Positions 11,048 to 30,757 of a stretch of DNA of 64,000 nt are shown here, piece after piece. The position numbers and the translations under genes are program-made. Position 1 is the stretch's first letter. Each line of letters starts with the position of its first letter. The DNA is from Thermoleophilia bacterium. Lineage in GTDB: Bacteria; Actinomycetota; Thermoleophilia; RBG-16-64-13. The notes below the pieces were generated by a model. That model saw only the letters and a program-made list of their open reading frames with translations, ran no database searches and was not told the DNA's origin. The stretch is taken from contig JAOSKU010000001.1 of the NCBI GenBank assembly GCA_027493445.1, positions 1,389,314-1,453,313 on the forward strand, in the 5' to 3' direction.

Positions 11048-11190
11048 CGTCTATCGACCTCCCATCAGGAATCCCGGACGCCGATACAAAGCCGATCCAT
11101 CATACAAGACCTGACGGACAGACGATTCGTGCGACCAGAGACCGAGGGACGTCAAGCTCGTCTTGGCGACTAGAAACTTCCCGTCCGGAT

Positions 11191-11218
11191 ATTGACACTA
11201 TCACGAGATTGTGCTGGC
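11191..11218 (+). repeat. Site S1: putative Tyr-recombinase site (11-6-11)
   Basis: ATTGACACTAT cacgag ATTGTGCTGGC; 88 bp past the stop at 11307. Confidence 0.7.
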
Positions 11219-15515: not shown

Positions 15516-15643
15516 GGGTACACATTCCTGGGCCCCGACCATGGCCTCTCCCCCATGTCCCGCAGCAGCGCACAAGGACCGATCACCTGCGCAGCCTGCT
15601 CCGTTTATGGGTCGCGATATCGGCCAATACTGCATCCTTGGAT

Positions 15644-15671
15644 ATTGACACTATGAACGGATGGTGCTTCG
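15644..15671 (+). repeat. Site S2: putative Tyr-recombinase site
   Basis: ATTGACACTAT gaacgg ATGGTGCTTCG; shares GGATATTGACACTAT with S1; 52 bp past the stop at 15724. Confidence 0.72.
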
Positions 15672-15723: not shown

Positions 15724-18250
15724 CTACGTCGCGCTCGGCTCCTCTGGACGCACGCCGAGGATCCAGCCCTCTACCCGCACGACGGCCTCCTGGTCTTCTC
15801 CGGGGAGCGCCGAGAGGTCGAACAGGCTCGCAAGCTGACCCTCATCATCAAGCCGAGCGAAGTGCTCGGCCAAGGCCCGGACCTGGCCGGCGTCCTTGAC
15901 CTCTGCAAAGGGCGAGGGCGGTATGAATGAGGGATAGATCTCCGCATGGACGATGAGCGGACCGCGGGGGGCGGAGAGGTCCTCCCCAGCGATGGCGGTC
16001 TCAAAGGGCCAGACACGCGAGAGGGGACCAAGGACCGCATCGTCGCGAAGCGCGAGCAGGCGAGGGATGCCAAGCAGGGCCTGGCTGCCCACCGAGCCCG
16101 CGCCGTAGAGCTGCCAGGGAGACTTGGGGCCCACCACCTGGCCATCGCAGAGGCGGTACTCGGGGATCCCTCCGGGCCAGGGGCGCGGCTTGGTTCTCTT
16201 AACAGGCTGCTGAAAAAGTCCCCCGCCTAGCCCTCCGATTGCCTCAACTTCCTATCTTTTTGCGCCCCTTTTTGGTAGTGTTTACCCTGCAAACTGGCAT
16301 AAAGCGAGGGGGTTGGGATGCGGGGAGAAGAGGCAAGGCAGCCGTCGTTTGTATTCTTGGGTCCCTTGGAGGAGCGCATCCCCAAAGATCACCCCTTGCG
16401 GGCCATCCGCAAGATGACCGATAAGGCGCTTTGCGGTCTCTCCCCCCTCTTTGACAAGATCTACTGTGAAGCCGGCCGCCCCTCCATCCCGCCCGAGTAC
16501 CTTCTGCGAGCCCTGCTTATTCAGGTGCTCTACGCCATCCCTTCGGAGCGCAAGCTCTGCGAACACCTCGAGTATCACCTGCTCTTTCGCTGGTTTGTGG
16601 GCCTCGATCTAAACGAGCCCGTCTGGCATCCCACCACCTTCACCCAAAACCGGGAGCGCCTGCTTGAGGGCGAGGTGGCCGAGGCCTTCTTCCTGGAGGT
16701 GAGGAAGCAGGCCCAGGCGGGGAAACTCCTTTCCCGGGAGCACTTCAGCCTGGACGGCACCTTGGTGGAAGCGGCGGCCTCCCTCAAGAGCTTCCGGCCC
16801 AAACAGGAATTGGCCGAGGGCCAGGAGGGCGGCCGGGGGCCAGGCAAAGATGACCCGGGTGCGGGGAGGACCCGAGCCCCGCCGAGCCAGTCTCGGAAAG
16901 CGCAGGCCGCGACCGCAACCCGAGTGTGGATTTCCACGGCGAGCGGCGCCGGAATGACACCCACGCTTCCACCACCGATCCGGAAGCTCTTCTTGCCAAA
17001 CACTCTCCCGGAGAAGCGGCCCGGCTCGCTTATGCCGGCCATCTCCTCACCGAGAACCGCCACGGTCTCATCGTCCAGGCCGATCTCTCCCGGGCCACCG
17101 GTACCGCCGAGCGGGAGATGGGTCTTGAGCTGGTGAAGGAGGAGCGCAAAAAGACCAAGGGCCGGTTCACTGTCGCAGCCGACAAGAACTACGACACCAA
17201 GGACTTCGTGGGCGAACTACGGACTAACGTTGTTACCCCGCATGTGGCTCGCAAAGAGAAGTACTCGGCCATCGATGGCCGCACGACACGGTGGGAGGGA
17301 TACGCCCTCAGCCAGAAGAAGCGCAAGCTGGTGGAGGAGGCCTTCGGCTGGATGAAGACAGTCGGACTGCTTCACAAGCTCCGGCACCGCGGGCGGGCCA
17401 AGGCCCGATGGATCTTCCAGTTCACGGCCGCCGCCTACAACCTGGTGAGAATGAGATCGCTGCTTCCGGAGTGCATCGCCAGATAGGGAAAAAGGGGCGG
17501 GGAATCGGCCTCTCCAGGGGGCATAATCCCGGTCTTCGCCCGGGCAATCCGAGAACCGACCGTTCGTGGGTCAAGCAGCCGAGCAACGGAGCACATCGGA
17601 GGGGCTCCAACCGGGGTATTTCAGCGGCCTGTTAAGGGAGGCACCCGCCTTGCTCTGGGGGCAGCCCCAGAAAGGAGCCGGTCCCCCGGTGAGGGCGCCG
17701 TTGAGCTCGGCGGCCACCTCGAAGCGGTTGTTCTTGTTGTCGGGGTGGTCCTCGACCAGGCCCGCGACTTCCTCCCAAAGAACGCGCCAGGGACGGTCGG
17801 CCGCCACTCCCAGGCGCTCGGCCGTACCCCGGGGAAGCCGTAGGGGAAATCAAAGCCCACCAGCACGCGCTGGCCTTGGGAGAGAAGACGGGTCAGGGAG
17901 GCCCGAACCTCGTGCAGACCTTGTTCCCGGGTGGGCGGGTTCTCTAGCAGCACCCGGCCGGACTCAGGCTCATGCAGGCACCACCAGACACTGTCTTTTC
18001 CCGTCTTGGGCCGACTGTTGGCACTCCAGTCCACCATCAGGTAGGCGTCGAACAGGGTGAGGGCGTCAGGTCTTCTGTGGGGAAGACCGCCGGCGGTCTG
18101 GCGCACGAGGTAGTCACGCAGGATGGTTTTTCGCCCCGCTCTGGCGAACCTCACCGTGACGACGTCGCCCCGCACCTCCTCGACCAGGCCCTGGCCGAAG
18201 ACCTCATGGGAGACCTCATCCCTCGGGCTGATGGGGGTCTCGCCGCTCAC
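15724..18250 (-). pseudogene. PcrA-type Tudor-like domain fused to a DUF429-like predicted nuclease; split by IS5
   Basis: N-terminus VSHEVFGQGLVEEVRGDVVTVRF; FDAYLMVDWSA, VGFDFPYG, PFWGCP, GSVGSQALLGIP, HAEIYPS motifs. Removing the IS rejoins GASLKRTKPRP. Confidence 0.65.
16203..17631 (+). mobile_element. IS5-family insertion sequence; transposase 16318-17486 with one frameshift
   Basis: TIRs CAGGCTGCTGAAAAA / rc CAGGCCGCTGAAATA; TTAA duplicated at 16199-16202 and 17632-17635; GRPSIPPE, HFSLDGTL, ADKNYD motifs. Confidence 0.9.
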
Positions 18251-18520
18251 CTACATGCGGTGGTCTCGTGGTCGCTGCGCCGATGGCGCCCCTTGCTGGT
18301 TCATGAACCTACCCTAGCAGACGGAGGCAACGAGAGGGAAAGGGGTCTGAACTCAAGGGGAGAAAAGGTCGGCTCTGGCTCGGCCGGCATCGTTGGCCGC
18401 CATACGCGTAGGATGCCCGAGGGTGATGGCCCCGCCAACCGGCAAGACCGCGGAGCAGCAATGGCCGATCAAGCGCCCGGCCCCGTAACCACGGGAGACC
18501 CCGCCGCTTCACTCTTGGGA

Positions 18521-18548
18521 ATTGACACTAACTGTTGATGGTGTTCTG
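18521..18548 (+). repeat. Site S3: putative Tyr-recombinase site
   Basis: ATTGACACTAA ctgttg ATGGTGTTCTG; 85 bp past the stop at 18634. Confidence 0.72.
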
Positions 18549-18633
18549 CCGGGTCGTCGGTTTAGCACGTGGGTGGCAGGAGCGCCGGGGGCCGACCACG
18601 CGACCACGCTACGCGCCGAATCGAGCGACTCAC

Positions 18634-21600
18634 CTACCGCCTTGGAAACAAGGGCTTCCAGCCACCCTTGTCCGACCACAGGATGGGGAGCGAGTTATTC
18701 GGACATCCGCGCTCGAACACAACCGCTAAGTCTAGGTTTCCATAGCCGAGAGGATGTTTGGGCTCCAGCTTTGCCCCCAAAATGCGTGGCATTCTTGCGC
18801 GCCAGTTTCCTTTGGTCATCCTCCTCAAACACCGTCCCCTCCTCCGAAAAGAGCTTATCCGCCTCCGATAGCAGCTGAACGTTTCTTACCTCAACGGGCC
18901 ACCCTCGGCGGTCGACCTCCTGCTCCACTCGTGACCATCCAGCAGCATCCGCCACCAGGGCCACGAAAAGAACCCGGAGTCTTCGTTCCTCTGCCAGCCA
19001 CGCTAAGAATGACTGGGACTCCTCGAAATAGCTCAGCACCTGTTCACCTGTGCCAACGAAGTCATCCAAGAATAGGACAACCTTGACACCATCGCCCTCA
19101 CGGACGAAGGCCTGCAACTTGCCGGCCTCCACAACGTTGCTACTGTACAGGTCGGCCTCATCTGCAAAGACCCGCGCCAAGTCCGAACCGCTCTTGCCAA
19201 AATCGCCCAGGTAGCTGACACAAACGTCGGCCCACTTCCTCCGCTTGCTAACTACCTGCCGCTTCAGATTGCGGCGAACCATCGCATCCACCTGGCCCAT
19301 CAGGCTGCGAAGTTCGCTTTCGCGGTAGAAGCGAACACCTCTTAGAATGTTGAACATGGCCCTCTGAGCCTCGTGACGGTCACCGAACTGCCGGAGCCAC
19401 TCCATTACGGCTCCCTCCGTGATCTCCTGGCCACGGTATCTCCCACCCCAGCCCTGGACTAACCGGCGAATCTCGTCTGGCTTGACTCTAATAGACTCCG
19501 CCCGGAGACGCTCCTCTGCTGCCTCATCCCGGTATTCCGCAGGTCCGATAATCGCGTGAACTCCCTGACTTGCCAGCCAGCGGCCGAATAGCGGCACCTT
19601 GAAGTCAAACGAGTCCTCCTGGGGTTCGACCAACACACCCCGGGATACAAACTCGCGCAGTTCGCCCTCTACGGAAGGGACACCAGCCGCAATGCCTTCC
19701 TTCTGAACAGCTTCGATCGTGCATGGAAACGCGCGCGTACAACAGTCAGAGACAGCGACCAGTACCTTGCGCCGGTTAAGGGACCTCTCGTTTCGGAGCA
19801 CGCCCGTGTCGAGAATCCCGTCCTCCCAGAAGTGTTGAAACGAGTTGACCTCGACCTCCTCGGCAGTATCTCGAATCGCTGCCGAGACTTCTGTGTCCGT
19901 GATATGTGAGTCCCGAGACACCAAGACTCGGTTGATGATTCTCTGGCATATCAGATTACTGAAATAAGGATTGCCAGCCGTTTCTTGATGCAAAAGCACC
20001 AAGGCATCATCGCTGTACTCTAGTCCGGTAGCCGGTCGCTGTACAAGTGTTTCGAACTCACTCCTGTTTCCGAAGTAGTCCACCTGCATCACATCCCACT
20101 TATTCAGCCTATACCCTTGCTGGTGAACAATCTGATTCATCTTTTCGCCGCCGACTATCATGAATCCAACATTTTTTCGGTTGCTGATACTCCTCAGCGA
20201 TTCAAAGAAGGCGTCTCCGACAACATCACGAGAATAGAGCACCGTTGGTAAAGAATCGAACTCATCAAGCACAATGACAAGCCTAGCGTTATCAGTCAAT
20301 TCAGCCAAGTCATCCACAAAGTCGGATAATGGGTTCAACGCGTGTTGATCAAAGTTAGGAACCGCAATTGACTTGGCGCGCTTGTCTTCACGGGCAATCG
20401 ATCTACACAACTTGGTTCCCAAGGTCGAGACTGTTTCTTCTCCAGTCGCATGAACAAAATCCCCTGCCTCAAGATATGCCACGATGGATCCTTGGTTCCT
20501 GAGATGCCTCGCGACAGTCTGTGCCAAGGAAGTTTTTCCAACTCGCTTCTGACCTTTGATGATTGCCGAGCCAACCTGAGTCCCGGTAAAGACCCCAATA
20601 AGCTTGTTGAGCAACTCTTTGCGACCTACAAGTCTATCTTCGGAGTCTACGGGCTCTAGCGAATACGGATTCGCTCGCTGCAGAGCTTCCCAGTCCACGT
20701 CAGGTGACTGAGCTTCCAGTTCGACGATCTCCTCTTTCTTGTGCTCTGAACCATCAAAGTCGCGCCAGGATACAACAGCTTCAATGATTGGGGCGCCACC
20801 AGTCACTTGCAGTCGCGCCGGCAGGGCAAGACCAGCAGGCTGCCTCGGAGCCATTAGCCCGATCGAGATGGCCTTCTGAAGCAGAATGACGGAGGCATCG
20901 GCCTCAACCTCGACAGCCACGTCATACGCGTATCCGGGCCCTTCGTTGATGACAATGAAGATTAGGTCAACTGGGGCTTGCTCAATATGAAAAGGGTACT
21001 TCTTGCCCTTCTTCTCCAGCCTGACGTCTGCAGGTTGAGCAGCCTTGTTTTGGGCGAAGTCATCCTTCGTCTGACGCAGTACCTCATCGCACAACGAATC
21101 ACGCAGGATTGACGAATACCTGGTAATGTAGTCTTGAAGCGACCCCCTGAGCGCCTCGCCCGCGTCAACTACCCCTCGATAAGCTTCTAGCGCCGCGGCC
21201 GAATCCCGGCTCTCGATGTACATGTCGACTCTCTCGAACAGCTCGCCGGTTCGGGCCTCCCACTCTCTGGGAAGAAACGGCTGGACAAGGGTCGAGGCCA
21301 CGTCCAATCGAATCGTCTTCATGAATGCCTGCCGCTGCTTCCTGAAGCCACCGAGAGAAGTCGGCGCCGTCAGACTCATTGAGTAAGCTTCATCATAATG
21401 ATCCACGGCCGTCGCGGCTTTCGCCAGCTTCTCATGAGCCTGGTCTTGCCCGCAAAGCCCAAGATCCTGTGCCACCTTGTGCGGGAGTCGACGCTCAAGG
21501 TAGTTCAGTACGTCCTGACGCCACTCGGACGTGTTCAGCCAATTCGCGGCTGGATGCGCCAAGAGTCTCAGAATCGCCGCGGTTAGCACTGACTGATGAT

Positions 21601-21808
21601 TCGGAACACCCGTGCCTTTCAGAGTCTGCTTGAGCTCGCCTGATGCCTCTGCGCGGACAACCGACAGCCCCATCCCCTTGCACAGAACATGGGAGACATC
21701 TTCGGGATCACCTGTTCGGCTGCTATCGAGAAGACATTCATCAACCAGGCAAGCGAACTTCATGGCTGACGACCCACCGACGTTCGGCGGGAACATTTCC
21801 GGCAACAT
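18634..21808 (-). CDS. Multidomain P-loop ATPase (STAND-like) with C-terminal phosphoribosyltransferase (PRTase-CE-like) domain; +1 frameshift in a homopolymer near 18775
   Basis: NPYSLEPV..LVGRKE, Walker A GQKRVGKTS, Walker B IVLDEFD, PRPP loop VLFLDDFVGTGEQ, tail GYG..VVF..CPNNSLPILW; GGAGG RBS before 21808. Confidence 0.8.
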
Positions 21809-22015
21809 TTCCCCTGTCCTCCATGTCAGTAGACACGACCCATACTGGCTGTCTCGGTTCGCCGGTGGTTGACGGAACGCACACCCAGGGAGCGAGAGCT
21901 TCTCTTGGCTCTACCGAAATCCTGGAATCACAAGGCGTGGGTCGGCAGTGAAGCACCTCCTGCCAAGCAATGGATTGCTGTGATTCTGTCAGTTCGGCTG
22001 TTCTCAATTCAACCA

Positions 22016-22043
22016 AGAGATACTACCGCAGAAGGGTGCTCTC
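22016..22043 (+). repeat. Site S4: putative Tyr-recombinase site (degenerate)
   Basis: AGAGATACTAC cgcaga AGGGTGCTCTC; 28 bp past the hsdR stop, at an apparent GC step. Confidence 0.55.
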
Positions 22044-22071
22044 ACAGCCCGCTGCACCGGGCTCGTCCCAC

Positions 22072-25218
<3,147 letters not shown>

Positions 25219-25308
25219 CGTCAAGAAGTCACGTCCTGGTCCTGCCTCGGACACGCGTATAGTATTGCACGCCGCTCTCACGATCGAGCTCGACGAGTGC
25301 CTTGGCCA

Positions 25309-28294
<2,986 letters not shown>

Positions 28295-28449: not shown

Positions 28450-29646
28450 TCAGAACGTCGGCACCTCCGGTTTCAGGCCCGCTACCCCGGCCAGGGCGAG
28501 AACCATCCGCCCGTAGAACCAGGAAAGCAACTGAAGATCCGCCATTTCCTGGGCCGTTGCTGGATTGTCCCTCTCGGCGGGAGTCGGAACCCAGTCAGGG
28601 TGCGCGGTCGAGTGACGAATTCGGCTGAAGCTCCGGAGAACGTCGTTCTTGACCGCCTTCCACGCTGAGCCCAGGTAGTGCTCTTGGAAGTCTTTCAGTC
28701 CCTTCTCCACTGTCCACGACTGGTTCGGCCTCGATAGCGGCTTCTCGTAGTAGCTCCGCAGTGCCGCCTCGAGCCACGTGCCCACCATCAGCTTCCGCCC
28801 GTACCAAGTGGGCTGCTGGTTGGCGGCCATCATGTGCTCAGACGCGCGCTCGATGATCCACTGCTCCTTCGACGGCTTGACCAGCCGTTGCACAAGCGCC
28901 CAGAACAGACCCGCGGGCACCGTCATATCCAACTCGGGGAACATACTGAGGAACGTGAGGACTACGGGGGTCGGTTTCTTGGCCACCTCGATGTAGGTGC
29001 ACCTCCCCCGCTCCACGCTCGACTCCATGAGCCATACCTCTTGACTGGCGAGCAGCGCGAGAGCCACTCGGATTGCCCGCGGTAGGCGTCGGGCATTCTC
29101 CTTTGTGAACCGGCCTCTATCCATAGTTGCGGTTACTTCTAGATATGGCTCTTCCTTGACGCGGCAGAGTAGGTTCACGAACCTGGTCTCGATCTGCAGC
29201 GCCCTCATAGAACCGGTCTTCTCCACCACTCGGTCCGCCACTGAGAAGCTGCCGGTCACCGCATGCGGCAACACTGGTGTCTTGACGAACTGGTACTGCC
29301 CACTCACAAGGTGTCGTGACAAGGCCCCCGGGTCCTTGATCCTCTCGATGAACAGCGCCCTGGGCGCTTCCACGGTAAGTCGCCCGTGCGCCTCGAGGTC
29401 GAACTGGTTTGCGAGCGGCACCGCCGGAATGAAAGCGCGACGACCATCCGTGAGCTCCAGTCGGAGCGAGGAGTACCTGTTCGCGGGTATCAAGCCATGA
29501 ACCATCTCGGAGAACAGCGGGGGTCTCTGAACGGACCGATCAACCAACAGGTCTACTTCCAGGCGCCCTGCTGCTTGCCAGCGCAAGACCCCCTCCCCCG
29601 CATCCAGGCGTCGCGATAACGGAAAGTACCGTCGTCGACGGTCCAT
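28450..29646 (-). CDS. Hypothetical protein with a C-terminal HEPN-like Rx4H motif (ApeA-like architecture)
   Basis: 398 aa; beta-rich N-terminus, helical C-terminus containing FSRIRHSTAHP. Confidence 0.5.
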   Translation of the reverse strand: MDRRRRYFPLSRRLDAGEGVLRWQAAGRLEVDLLVDRSVQRPPLFSEMVHGLIPANRYSSLRLELTDGRRAFIPAVPLANQFDLEAHGRLTVEAPRALFIERIKDPGALSRHLVSGQYQFVKTPVLPHAVTGSFSVADRVVEKTGSMRALQIETRFVNLLCRVKEEPYLEVTATMDRGRFTKENARRLPRAIRVALALLASQEVWLMESSVERGRCTYIEVAKKPTPVVLTFLSMFPELDMTVPAGLFWALVQRLVKPSKEQWIIERASEHMMAANQQPTWYGRKLMVGTWLEAALRSYYEKPLSRPNQSWTVEKGLKDFQEHYLGSAWKAVKNDVLRSFSRIRHSTAHPDWVPTPAERDNPATAQEMADLQLLSWFYGRMVLALAGVAGLKPEVPTF

Positions 29647-29821: not shown

Positions 29822-30757
29822 ATGCGCTCGACCGCTGTCAGCTACCCCATCGGATCGTTGGAAGGCTGGGAGCGTTCGCTCATGGCCTTCCTGGTCGAGA
29901 AGGAACGCCGCTCCGGTTCCCGGCGCACGGTGGAGAGCTACTCCCGCATGCTCCAGGACTTCTTCGGGCGGCTGGGCAAGGCTCCCGACAAAGTGACCGC
30001 CCAGGAGGTGTTCGTCTGGGCCCACGCCGTCGGTGTCTCCGGCAGGGACCCCTCCCCCATCACCATCGGCGCGCGCATGGCCTGCGTGTCGTCGTTCTTT
30101 CGTTTCCTTCAGCGCATGGATATCGTCGACAAGAACCCCTGCGATCGGCTGGAGCGACCCAAGACCTCGCCCTCTCCCCCGCGTGGGCTCACGGCCGACG
30201 ATGTACGTCGCTTACTGGCGGTCATCCCCGACACGCCGGTGGGTCTACGCAACCGCGCTCTGATACTCACGCTCGTACTCACGGGCCGTCGCAGGGCCGA
30301 GGTATTCCGCATGACCGCGGGCGACCTCTCCATCGAGAACGGCACCTGCTTCTACACCTACAGGGGCAAGGGGGCGAAGACGGGACGCCGCGAGCTGCCC
30401 CTACCTGCCGTCGACGCGCTCAGGGCCGCGCTGCGGGCCTTCGGGCGCGAACTGGAGGACATGTCCCCGGAGGAGTCCCTCTGGCCCTCAGGGGCGGGCA
30501 CCGGCCGTGGCCTCACCTCGGGCACCTTCTACGCCCAGCTTAGGCGCTACCTAAAGCAAGCCGGTCTGCCAGCGGCCGGGGTGCACATCCTGCGCCACAC
30601 GGCGGCCAAGCTCAGGCGGGATGTCGGCGAGTCCATCGAGGACGTGTCCCGCTTTCTGGATCACTCCTCGCTCGCGGTGACCACGACCTACCTCCGGCGG
30701 CTGGAAGGGCAGGAAGATCTGGGCTGGGGGCGGGTGGCGGAGGCTATCGGGCTGTGA
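29822..30757 (+). CDS. XerC/D-like tyrosine recombinase (intact, 311 aa)
   Basis: SAM-like N-domain (RRTVESYSRML); catalytic residues in TGRRRAE, GKG, HILRH, LDHSS..TTTY; AAGGAG RBS. Confidence 0.92.
   Translation: MRSTAVSYPIGSLEGWERSLMAFLVEKERRSGSRRTVESYSRMLQDFFGRLGKAPDKVTAQEVFVWAHAVGVSGRDPSPITIGARMACVSSFFRFLQRMDIVDKNPCDRLERPKTSPSPPRGLTADDVRRLLAVIPDTPVGLRNRALILTLVLTGRRRAEVFRMTAGDLSIENGTCFYTYRGKGAKTGRRELPLPAVDALRAALRAFGRELEDMSPEESLWPSGAGTGRGLTSGTFYAQLRRYLKQAGLPAAGVHILRHTAAKLRRDVGESIEDVSRFLDHSSLAVTTTYLRRLEGQEDLGWGRVAEAIGL

What the first reader, a model, noticed from the sequence alone, without database searches (positions are those of the whole stretch)
18634..21808. Single-gene cassette encoding an Ig-like/STAND-type ATPase/PRTase fusion: candidate anti-phage sensor-effector
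Seen: ~1058 aa (after one homopolymer fix) comprising a helical N-region, a beta-sandwich-like segment, a P-loop ATPase, a probable wHTH, and a C-terminal PRTase with LDDFVGTG and GYG..PNNSLPILW motifs. It has visibly lower GC and is bounded exactly by S3 and S4. Established: STAND NTPases act as infection sensors, and this PRTase subtype has been predicted as a conflict-system effector. Inference: ATPase-triggered PRPP/nucleotide depletion or modification causing abortive infection.
Basis: partly seen in the sequence, partly recalled or inferred. Interest (0 to 1): 0.7.

Follow-up and report, generated by a model that had tools for sequence, protein, structure and literature searches.

The report
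Intact single-gene ATPase–PRTase defence candidate
The gene is real and intact (its "frameshift" is an assembly error) and encodes a 1,057-residue protein joining a variable sensor-like head, an ATPase switch and a phosphoribosyltransferase of the type retrons use to kill phage-infected cells; it belongs to a widespread, untested family that is probably a one-gene antiviral system.

Summary
The minus-strand gene at 18634-21808 is real. Its single frameshift is an assembly error. Short-read contigs from five bioreactor-metagenome runs all lack one base of the C5 run at 18774-18778, and an intact 1,057-aa product (P0028) is on record.

A confident AlphaFold2 model (pLDDT 88) shows five parts: a helical N-domain, an eight-strand beta-sandwich, a P-loop ATPase with lid and winged helix, a helical linker, and a C-terminal PRTase. 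The PRTase matches Pfam PRTase-CE and folds like UPRT, OPRT and HGPRT. Walker A/B and the DD-x-x-GTG PRPP loop are invariant across the family.

The ATPase carries STAND-like motifs (GRExE, GxP), but its best structural matches are RuvB, RFC and ORC. It has no repeat sensor, so "STAND-type" is only partly supported.

The gene is the lowest-GC stretch of the window (55% against 64%) and lies directly downstream of a type I R-M operon. Relatives occur in about 410 of 185,579 species genomes across many phyla. They have no conserved partner gene, and their recurrent neighbours are R-M and other defence genes.

"Bounded by S3 and S4" fails: S3 belongs to a real three-copy repeat, but S4 is a chance-level match.

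Best reading: an untested, stand-alone abortive-infection sensor-effector that consumes PRPP. It is a new variant of a known kind.

The parts
18634..21808 (-). Whole gene. It encodes 1057 aa once the one spurious base is removed. The ATG at 21808 is preceded by GGAGGA 8 nt upstream.
18774..18778 (.). C5 homopolymer (G5 on the coding strand). One base is an assembly error and causes the apparent +1 frameshift.
   Evidence: the base is absent from contigs of 5 runs. One search gives the coordinates.
21053..21769 (-). N-terminal all-helical domain (residues 14-252). It has no Pfam match and is the most variable part of the family (20% mean identity). Candidate sensor.
20720..21025 (-). Eight-strand beta-sandwich (residues 262-363), Ig-like by predicted secondary structure. 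It has no Pfam match and 28% mean identity across the family.
20039..20635 (-). P-loop NTPase core (residues 392-590). Motifs: LVGRKEL (GRExE-like), Walker A GQKRVGKTS at 20528-20554, Walker B VIVLDEFD at 20255-20278.
19739..20011 (-). Helical lid (residues 600-690) with the invariant G-N-P (GxP) motif and the conserved FQHFWEDG motif.
19544..19738 (-). Winged-helix-like domain (residues 691-755).
   Evidence: One search shows RuvB/ORC-type AAA+-lid-WH matches.
18637..19408 (-). PRTase-CE domain (residues 801-1057): a helical N-part plus the PRTase core. The PRPP loop VVLFLDDFVGTG lies at 19046-19081. The C-terminal motif is GYG...CPNNSLPILW.
   Evidence: 81.4 + 65.1 bits, cut-off 27; (pLDDT 95)
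21809..22071 (.). 263-bp low-GC (57%) spacer between the hsdR stop and the gene start. It is presumed to hold the gene's own promoter, but no consensus promoter was found.
22072..28294 (-). Type I R-M operon directly upstream on the same strand: hsdM 26591-28294, hsdS 25309-26607, hsdR 22072-25281.
18521..18548 (+). It is a member of a real three-copy repeat (with 11191 and 15644) of unknown role.
22016..22043 (+). It is a weak match (5 of 19 mismatches) that cannot be told from chance.
16203..17631 (+). Multicopy IS (DUF772 transposase, about 14x depth). It truncates the next gene downstream and marks the region as a mobile-element hotspot.

Best explanation
The gene encodes an intact, horizontally acquired, stand-alone immune-type sensor-effector.

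Proposed mechanism. The variable N-terminal helical and Ig-like head is the likely sensor. The conserved ORC/STAND-like ATPase-lid-winged-helix module is the nucleotide-dependent switch or oligomerisation unit. The C-terminal PRTase-CE domain is the effector. On sensing a phage or mobile-element cue, the ATPase module would release or assemble the PRTase. The PRTase would then consume PRPP, as the same family does in Retron-Eco11. Nucleotide synthesis would collapse and infection would abort.

Shown here:
- the gene is intact;
- the domain architecture and folds;
- membership of the PRTase-CE family;
- conservation of the catalytic motifs;
- foreign base composition;
- patchy distribution across many phyla;
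- lack of any obligate partner gene;
- defence and mobile-element neighbourhoods.

Inferred: defence function, which domain senses, ATPase gating, and PRPP depletion as the toxic act.
For: INTACT GENE
- Five runs lack the extra base.
- P0028 is identical to the repaired translation.
- Depth over the gene equals the flanks (29 against 30-36), so it is fixed in the population.

EFFECTOR
- PF24390 PRTase-CE scores 81.4 bits for residues 801-1008, and the tail adds 65.1 bits.
- The only notable PADLOC hits are retron PRTase_III-A models, up to 54 bits.
- All of the best PDB fold matches to the C-terminal model (pLDDT 95) are type I PRTases, E down to 3e-5.
- The best viral match is a 'PRTase-CE domain-containing protein', E 2e-12, TM 0.68.
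- D916, G921, P1036 and N1037 are invariant and D915 is nearly so, in 24 and 73 sequences.
- PRTase-CE is the retron III-A effector family (PMC13712802).
- Activated Eco11 PRTase lowers PRPP and causes abortive infection (PMC12746101).
- ShosT toxicity needs its DD motif (PMC11961720).

SWITCH
- Walker A and Walker B are invariant.
- The model has an AAA+-lid-WH module that matches RuvB, RFC and ORC/Cdc6 at E about 1e-7.

SENSOR-LIKE VARIABILITY
- Mean identity is 20% for the N-domain, 28% for the beta-sandwich and 43% for the ATPase.

FAMILY AND CONTEXT
- 410 relatives in 185,579 species genomes across many bacterial phyla and some archaea.
- 1118 representatives at E<=1e-30.
- No neighbour family is shared by more than 5 of 83 loci. 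The shared ones are HsdS, HsdM and type IIG R-M.
- The gene abuts or sits inside type I R-M operons in the window, L003, L009 and L067.
- Immediate neighbours include mad2, type I, III and IV restriction enzymes, PbeA, ZacC, PifA, GajB, HmaB and PDC candidates, plus transposases and recombinases.
- Low GC indicates recent transfer.
Against: - There is no experimental evidence for defence, toxicity or PRPP use.
- No PADLOC v2 or NCBIfam model names this family.
- Some homologues sit among housekeeping genes, for example L004 and the enolase, ferrochelatase and LeuRS neighbours.
- My enrichment estimate has no matched control.
- No full-length relative was found on plasmids or phages.
- The trigger is unknown. 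The sensor role of the N-domain rests only on its variability.
- ShosT bound PRPP but no tested purine, so the acceptor, and hence the chemistry, of defence PRTases is unsettled.
Confidence: 0.55

Rival explanations
1. Same sensor-switch-effector logic, but different effector chemistry. The PRTase does not simply drain PRPP. It would either phosphoribosylate a macromolecule (DNA, RNA or protein) or make an aberrant or signalling nucleotide.
For: - ShosT binds PRPP but none of the tested purines, so its acceptor is unknown.
- Ophion's PRTase is proposed to make transcription-blocking nucleotides without abortive infection.
- Conflict-type PRTases share a conserved Arg with the DNA-uptake protein ComFC.
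- Some family members carry an extra cyclase (P0008) or Schlafen AlbA_2 (P0157) domain, which hints at nucleotide or nucleic-acid chemistry.
Against: The closest characterised relative by sequence is the retron III-A PRTase. Its only significant metabolite change on activation was PRPP loss.
Confidence: 0.2
2. A guard of the neighbouring type I R-M system, analogous to PrrC. The protein would be held silent by the Hsd complex and fire when a phage anti-restriction protein disables it.
For: The gene lies directly downstream of hsdR on the same strand. It sits between hsdS and hsdR in L003, just after hsdR in L009, and 19 nt before hsdM in L067.
Against: - Only about 6-7 of 84 loci have a type I system within 10 kb, so the link is not obligate.
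- The gene's GC differs from the hsd genes by 9-11 points, so it arrived separately.
- Type I loci are general insertion hotspots for defence genes (established knowledge).
Confidence: 0.1
3. Not a defence gene. It would instead be a mobile-element or nucleotide-metabolism regulator, for example a TniB/AAA_22-type target selector or a PyrR/ComFC-like regulator.
For: - AAA_22 hits, and a TniB hit in one member.
- IS elements and recombinases are nearby.
- Some loci are in housekeeping contexts.
Against: - No transposase or other partner is conserved.
- The PRTase is of the conflict-effector family, not Pribosyltran, PyrR or ComF.
- The family shows a sporadic 0.2% species distribution across phyla, a hypervariable N-domain and foreign GC.
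Confidence: 0.1
4. The gene is a mobile integron-like cassette, excised and inserted at S3 and S4 by the XerD-like recombinase at 29822-30757.
For: - S3 belongs to a real repeat family.
- An intact tyrosine recombinase lies 8 kb away.
- The low-GC block roughly fills the S3-S4 interval.
- The idea comes from earlier AI note e1-5216433.
Against: - S4 is a chance-level match, and S5-S7 are weaker still.
- No repeats flank the gene.
- The contigs of four of the runs, laid across it, show no excision joint or empty site.
- Homologues elsewhere have unrelated flanks.
Confidence: 0.07
5. A decaying pseudogene, or a programmed +1 frameshift.
For: The window sequence has a frameshift in a homopolymer.
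Against: - Five runs give the in-frame sequence.
- Three other indels within 16 kb show that the assembly is indel-prone.
- All catalytic motifs are intact.
Confidence: 0.02

Closest known systems
Type III-A retron PRTase effectors (e.g. Retron-Eco11; PMC12746101, PMC7736814, PMC13712802)
   Same: The same Pfam family (PRTase-CE, PF24390) and PADLOC PRTase_III-A models. The DD PRPP loop is conserved. In retrons the effector is held inactive and then causes abortive infection with PRPP loss.
   Different: There is no reverse transcriptase, ncRNA or msDNA here. Control would come from a covalently fused ATPase module and N-terminal head. Sequence similarity is modest (54 bits).
Avs / bacterial NLR-like STAND single-protein defences (Avs1-5, bNACHT)
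   Same: One polypeptide joins a sensor, a nucleotide switch (NBD-helical-WH) and an effector. The GRExE-like and GxP motifs are present. The family is sporadic, horizontally transferred and found in defence islands.
   Different: The polarity is reversed: the variable head is N-terminal and the effector C-terminal. There is no TPR, WD40 or LRR sensor. The best fold matches are RuvB, RFC and ORC rather than STAND structures. No Avs or NACHT model reached E<=0.1 in PADLOC. No paper on STAND or Avs proteins in the library searched reports a PRTase effector.
ShosTA / PsyrTA toxins (PMC11961720, PMC12961424)
   Same: A PRTase domain is the toxic effector of a validated phage defence, and the DD motif is essential.
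   Different: ShosT has an N-terminal pyrophosphatase and is countered by a DprA-like antitoxin gene. Here there is no partner gene and no PPase domain. ShosT and PsyrT models did not hit.
PrrC / RloC-type ATPase-effector proteins embedded in type I R-M loci
   Same: An ATPase fused to a toxic C-terminal effector, encoded inside or next to hsd operons (window, L003, L009, L067).
   Different: The ATPase class is different (ABC-type in PrrC) and so is the effector (anticodon nuclease). The R-M association here is occasional, in about 5-8% of loci.
Operonic PRTase-CE + ORC/Cdc6-like ATPase (+CARF-like, SIS/HAD, PfkB) cassettes noted earlier in this scan (AI notes)
   Same: A PRTase-CE effector is paired with a P-loop ATPase in mobile, defence-associated contexts.
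   Different: Here the two are fused in one protein and there are no accessory genes. The ATPase did not match PF24389 in the Pfam scan. I did not examine those cassettes myself.

Membership tests
PRTase-CE (Pfam PF24390) | Profile match above the curated cut-off over the whole domain | tested here: met
   81.4 bits for profile positions 1-201 and 65.1 bits for positions 204-253 (cut-off 27). The two pieces are split only by the assembly error; other family members score up to 168 bits.
PRTase-CE (Pfam PF24390) | Structural match to another PRTase-CE protein | tested here: met
   the best BFVD match is a 'PRTase-CE domain-containing protein', E 2.4e-12, TMq 0.68.
Type I phosphoribosyltransferase fold | Rossmann-like PRTase core | tested here: met
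   the model has pLDDT 95. The top 30 PDB matches are all UPRT, OPRT, HGPRT, APRT or PyrR, with E from 3e-5 to 4e-3 and probability about 1.0.
Type I phosphoribosyltransferase fold | PRPP-binding loop: hydrophobic strand, two acidic residues, then a small G/T-rich turn | tested here: met
   The loop reads VVLFLDDFVGTG (residues 910-921). D916 and G921 are invariant and D915 is at least 90% conserved.
Type I phosphoribosyltransferase fold | PRPP binding or turnover, and identity of the acceptor | not testable with these tools
   This needs biochemistry.
STAND NTPases | NBD, helical domain with GxP motif and winged helix; GRExE-like motif before the P-loop | tested here: met
   LVGRKEL, GQKRVGKTS, VIVLDEFD, AGNPYF, then a wH at 691-755. 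Weak or partial Pfam hits to AAA_16, ATPase_2, NPHP3_N, nSTAND3 and NACHT.
STAND NTPases | Closest structural relatives are STAND proteins (Apaf-1, NLR, MalT, Avs) | tested here: not met
   the top 50 PDB matches are RuvB, RFC, ORC/Cdc6, Clp, p97 and proteasomal AAA+ proteins, with no STAND entry. Only the top 50 can be seen.
STAND NTPases | C-terminal repeat sensor (TPR, WD40, LRR) after the NOD module | tested here: not met
   the C-terminus is a PRTase and no repeats are present.
Avs (antiviral STAND) families | Match to Avs profiles | tested here: not met
   no Avs model among PADLOC hits at E<=0.1.
Retron type III-A system | Adjacent reverse transcriptase and msr/msd ncRNA | tested here: not met
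   The window neighbours are hsdR and an IS-truncated gene. No neighbour family is conserved across 83 loci. I ran no dedicated ncRNA search.
ShosTA/PsyrTA toxin-antitoxin | Adjacent DprA-like antitoxin; N-terminal PPase on the toxin | tested here: not met
   no such partner gene or domain.
Integron-like or dif-like cassette | Paired recombination sites flanking the unit, above chance | tested here: not met
   S4 has 5 of 19 mismatches, with 1.15 such sites expected by chance; no flanking repeats; no excision joints.
Defence-island gene (operational criterion) | Homologues recurrently next to known defence genes | tested here: inconclusive
   At least about 22 of 123 immediate neighbours hit PADLOC models at E<=1e-10. 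R-M components are the only recurrent neighbour clusters. No matched control set was run.

The most novel reading that the evidence does not exclude
This family would be a previously undescribed, widespread class of single-chain immune receptors with reversed NLR polarity. A hypervariable helical and Ig-like head senses phage components. An ORC/STAND-like ATPase oligomerises. The fused PRTase-CE is thereby switched on to destroy PRPP. That would make it the first ATPase-gated metabolic PRTase effector. It would also act as a 'Rosetta-stone' fusion, explaining why PRTase-CE genes travel with separate P-loop ATPases in other candidate systems.
Probability: 0.35. Interest if true: 0.65.

Novelty: new variant of a known kind. 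Interest (0 to 1): 0.5.

Why it matters
If confirmed, this would add a compact one-gene system to the list of bacterial immune mechanisms. It occurs in roughly 0.2% of prokaryotic species across more than 15 phyla.

It would also show a third way of controlling defence PRTases, after retron RT-msDNA complexes and DprA-type antitoxins: direct fusion to a nucleotide-dependent switch. Because sensor, switch and effector lie in one chain, it would be a convenient model for three questions:
- how PRTase effectors are kept silent;
- what they actually do to PRPP or nucleotides;
- what the unannotated N-terminal head recognises.

There is also a practical lesson. This closed metagenome-assembled genome carries homopolymer indels at about 1 per 4 kb in this region, so its other "frameshifted" genes should not be called pseudogenes without reads.

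Tried and rejected
- Programmed frameshift or pseudogene. Rejected by read evidence.
- Flanking repeats or att sites. A blastn self-comparison of both spacers and the repeat finder found nothing beyond the short S1-S3 motif.
- S4-S7 as members of the S1-S3 family. They are at chance level.
- Conserved partner gene (HNH_2 after P0005, DUF8370/8371 before it, the 269-aa ORF in L003). None recurs. The stretch downstream in the window encodes an unrelated IS-truncated gene with no Pfam hit.
- Effector swapping. P0141 seemed to lack the PRTase, but its tail is an out-of-frame Arg/Ser/Cys-rich read-through. P0134, P0170 and P0172 look truncated.
- Sequence search of the PDB with the protein and with the family profile. 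It gave only P-loop-local AAA+ hits and no PRTase or ShosT hit.
- Pfam on the isolated N-domain and beta-sandwich. No family even at E<=10.
- Plasmid and phage collections. Only stand-alone PRTase-domain hits on plasmids and none in phages.
- Promoter and terminator consensus scan of 18300-22200. Nothing found.
- PADLOC scan of ten other window ORFs. No hits.
- Literature. No paper in the library describes this fusion.
- The genome search and the fetch from genomes were shut. I could not examine the rest of the genome or verify its taxonomy.
Full report
**1. The observation**

The minus strand carries a 1037-aa ORF at 18695-21808. A 64-aa ORF in another frame, at 18634-18828, overlaps its end. 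Pfam places positions 1-201 of PRTase-CE (PF24390) at residues 801-1008 of the long ORF. Positions 204-253 fall in the short ORF. One domain is therefore split by a frameshift, in the run TTTTGGGGG of the coding strand (C5 at 18774-18778 on the plus strand).

I laid Logan contigs of public bioreactor-metagenome runs on the region. All five runs tested (X1-X4 and X6, from four studies) lack exactly one base at 18774 and are otherwise identical. The same contigs disagree with the window by single-base indels at 16862, 17830 and 29588, so the assembly is indel-prone.

Removing the extra base gives a 1057-aa protein. It is letter-for-letter identical to P0028, a Logan-derived member of the same 90% cluster. 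Relatives end with the same ...HPxGYG...CPNNSLPxxW...F.RR tail.

The gene is therefore intact. A pseudogene and a programmed frameshift are both excluded.

Depth over the gene (29x in X1) equals that of the flanks (30-36x). No contig joins the flanks without it, so it is fixed in the sampled population.

**2. Anatomy**

An AlphaFold2 model was built from P0028 and 23 homologues. It has mean pLDDT 87.9 and shows these parts:

| Residues | Part |
|---|---|
| 14-252 | all-helical N-domain |
| 262-363 | eight-strand beta-sandwich |
| 392-590 | P-loop core |
| 600-690 | helical lid |
| 691-755 | winged-helix-like domain |
| 758-850 | helical linker |
| 860-1057 | alpha/beta domain |

- *N-terminal head.* Neither the N-domain nor the beta-sandwich matches any Pfam family, even at E<=10.
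- *C-terminal domain.* A separate model of residues 757-1057 (73-sequence alignment, pLDDT 95.1) matches only type I phosphoribosyltransferases in the PDB. These are UPRT, OPRT, HGPRT, APRT and PyrR, with E down to 2.8e-5 and probability 1.0. Its best viral match is a protein annotated "PRTase-CE domain-containing", E 2.4e-12, TMq 0.68.
- *PRPP loop.* The loop reads VVLFLDDFVGTG. D916, G921, P1036 and N1037 are invariant and D915 is nearly so.

**3. The ATPase**

Walker A (GQKRVGKTS) and Walker B (VIVLDEFD) are invariant in the family. An LVGRKEL motif precedes the P-loop. An invariant G-N-P lies in the lid. Both are hallmarks usually quoted for STAND NTPases (from my own knowledge of Leipe et al. 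2004 and Danot et al. 2009, not re-read here).

Pfam gives AAA_16 and AAA_22 at E about 1e-11. It gives weak ATPase_2, NPHP3_N and nSTAND3 hits for this protein. Other members reach ATPase_2 above its cut-off, with NACHT and TniB hits in single members.

However, the 50 best structural matches of the full model are RuvB, RFC, ORC/Cdc6 and other classical AAA+ proteins. None is a STAND structure. No repeat sensor follows the winged helix. I therefore call it an ORC/STAND-like AAA+ switch, and "STAND-type" is only partly supported.

**4. Family**

- A word-indexed search found 25 full-length relatives of 1035-1107 aa with the same domains. The best is 45% identical.
- A profile search of 1.84 billion representatives found 1118 proteins at E<=1e-30, and most of the best 150 span the whole profile.
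- A scan of one genome per species found 410 relatives in 185,579 species. They fall in Chloroflexota, Acidobacteriota, Cyanobacteria, Planctomycetota, Gemmatimonadota, Bacteroidota, Desulfobacterota, Actinomycetota, a few archaea and others. Cultured hosts include Pseudomonas trivialis, P. alliivorans, Mesorhizobium sangaii, Paludibaculum fermentans and Gelidibacter algens.
- The window protein's nearest genomic relatives are in other phyla: Anaerolineae 41%, Polyangiaceae 39%.
- The architecture is rigid. The few exceptions add a domain: a class III cyclase in P0008, Schlafen AlbA_2 in P0157 and UPF0158 in P0037. The rest are truncated or frameshifted entries.
- Conservation is uneven. Mean identity to the window protein is 20% in the N-domain, 28% in the beta-sandwich, 43% in the ATPase and lid, and 35% in the PRTase. 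A fast-evolving recognition head on a conserved switch and effector would give this pattern.

**5. Context**

*In the window.* The gene follows hsdM-hsdS-hsdR (28294 to 22072) on the same strand after a 263-bp spacer.

- Downstream lies a gene fragment cut by a multicopy IS at 16203-17631 (about 14x depth).
- Another transposase and a tyrosine recombinase are nearby.
- The gene is the lowest-GC 3.2-kb stretch of the window: 55.4% against 64.1%, with GC3 62% against 76-90% in the hsd genes. It was therefore acquired separately from the R-M system.

*In other loci.*

- In L003 the homologue sits between hsdS and hsdR, beside AbiEii-like and CHAT/Pepco genes and an integrase.
- In L009 it follows hsdR, and in L067 it ends 19 nt before hsdM. 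L015 and L052 also have type I systems within 10 kb.
- L005 lies beside a type IIG enzyme inside a conjugative element. L001 lies beside an SbcCD-like pair and an HNH gene.

*Across loci.*

- I clustered all ORFs within 4 kb in 83 loci. No neighbour family is shared by more than five loci. The shared ones are HsdS, HsdM and Eco57I-like enzymes. There is no obligate partner, so "single-gene" holds.
- Of 123 immediate neighbours, at least about 22 hit PADLOC models at E<=1e-10. These are mad2 (four), type I, III and IV restriction components, PbeA, ZacC, PifA, GajB, HmaB and several PDC candidates. Transposases and recombinases are also common.
- Some loci are plainly housekeeping.
- I ran no matched control, so the enrichment is indicative, not proven.
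- No full-length relative is on PLSDB plasmids or in phage genomes.

**6. "Bounded exactly by S3 and S4"**

Earlier first-reader notes define S1-S7 as 11-6-11 sites. S1-S3 (11191, 15644, 18521) share CTTGGnnATTGACACTAW-N6-ATKGTGYT and are a real repeat. No shuffle out of 100 reached the observed count.

S4 (22016) was scored against the S1-S3 consensus and has 5 mismatches in 19 positions. Two such sites occur in the window against 1.15 expected. S5-S7 have 6 or more mismatches, with 9.3 such sites expected.

No repeat flanks the gene, and the contigs laid across it show no excision joint. The cassette claim is not supported. The compositional island is simply the gene plus its upstream spacer.

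**7. Mechanism**

PRTase-CE is the effector family of type III-A retrons (PMC13712802). The only notable PADLOC hits of this protein are retron PRTase_III-A models.

- In Retron-Eco11 the PRTase is essential. It is activated by phage helicases, causes abortive infection and lowers PRPP by about half (PMC12746101).
- In ShosTA the PRTase DD motif is required for toxicity, and the enzyme binds PRPP (PMC11961720).
- Ophion's PRTase is needed against jumbo phages (bioRxiv 10.1101/2025.09.30.679545).

By analogy, I propose that the variable head senses an infection cue, that the ATPase module switches or oligomerises, and that the PRTase then consumes PRPP. Only the parts list is shown. Gating, trigger and chemistry are inferred.

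*Rivals.*

- A different PRTase product or target.
- A PrrC-like guard of the type I R-M system, suggested by four abutting loci but contradicted by the roughly 93% of loci without one.
- A non-defence mobile-element or regulatory role.
- Recombinase-mobilised cassette status.

**8. Novelty**

No PADLOC v2 or NCBIfam model names the family. No paper in the searchable library describes an ATPase-PRTase-CE fusion.

The components and the logic are known: sensor-NTPase-effector single proteins, and PRTase effectors. Earlier notes of this scan report operonic PRTase-CE plus ATPase cassettes (unchecked). This is therefore a new variant of a known kind. It is credible, widespread and easy to test, but not conceptually surprising.

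One 226-nt metatranscriptome contig identical to 19444-19667 is a weak hint of expression.

The host is an uncultured bioreactor bacterium. An earlier AI note calls it Thermoleophilia, which I could not verify because the genome tools were shut.

Noticed in passing
window 16862, 17830, 18774, 29588: Single-base indels relative to short-read contigs of several runs. The closed assembly has about one homopolymer error per 4 kb here, so other apparent frameshifts in this genome are suspect, including one in the IS transposase at 16862.
   Followed up: partly
window 16203-17631: A 1430-bp IS with a DUF772 transposase at about 14x the depth of its flanks, so it is multicopy in the genome or community. 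It truncates a minus-strand gene that starts near 18250.
   Followed up: partly
window 17632-18250 (-): IS-truncated gene fragment (…LMVDWSANSRPKTGKDSVWW…). It needs the +G correction at 17830 to read through. It has no Pfam hit.
   Followed up: partly
window 11177-11213, 15630-15666, 18507-18543: Real three-copy repeat CTTGGnnATTGACACTAW-N6-ATKGTGYT (S1-S3), each in a spacer. Its role is unknown: a regulator site, a promoter element or a recombination site. The proposed extra copies S4-S7 are at chance level.
   Followed up: partly
window 28450-29646 (-): A 398-aa ORF just upstream of hsdM on the same strand has no Pfam, NCBIfam or PADLOC match. It may be an uncharacterised accessory of the R-M operon.
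   Followed up: no
L003 1-23225: Dense defence island around the homologue P0009. It holds CHAT + Pepco, an integrase, two hsdM genes with an AbiEii/DUF6036 pair between them, hsdS, the ATPase-PRTase gene, hsdR, a Roc-COR LRR GTPase and HATPase_c_3 + PP_RS20740.
   Followed up: no
P0008 (L004 10001-13876), P0157, P0037: Family variants with an added domain: a C-terminal class III adenylate/guanylate cyclase, a C-terminal Schlafen AlbA_2, or an N-terminal UPF0158. These may hint at nucleotide signalling or nucleic-acid binding.
   Followed up: partly
window 19444-19667: A 226-nt contig from a bioreactor metatranscriptome run (X14) is identical to this part of the gene. This is weak evidence of transcription, because the library may contain DNA.
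   Followed up: no
window 22010-22543 and 25748-26281: Extra contig depth and many loose ends over the 3' part of hsdR and within hsdS. Related hsd alleles from other community members share these segments.
   Followed up: no
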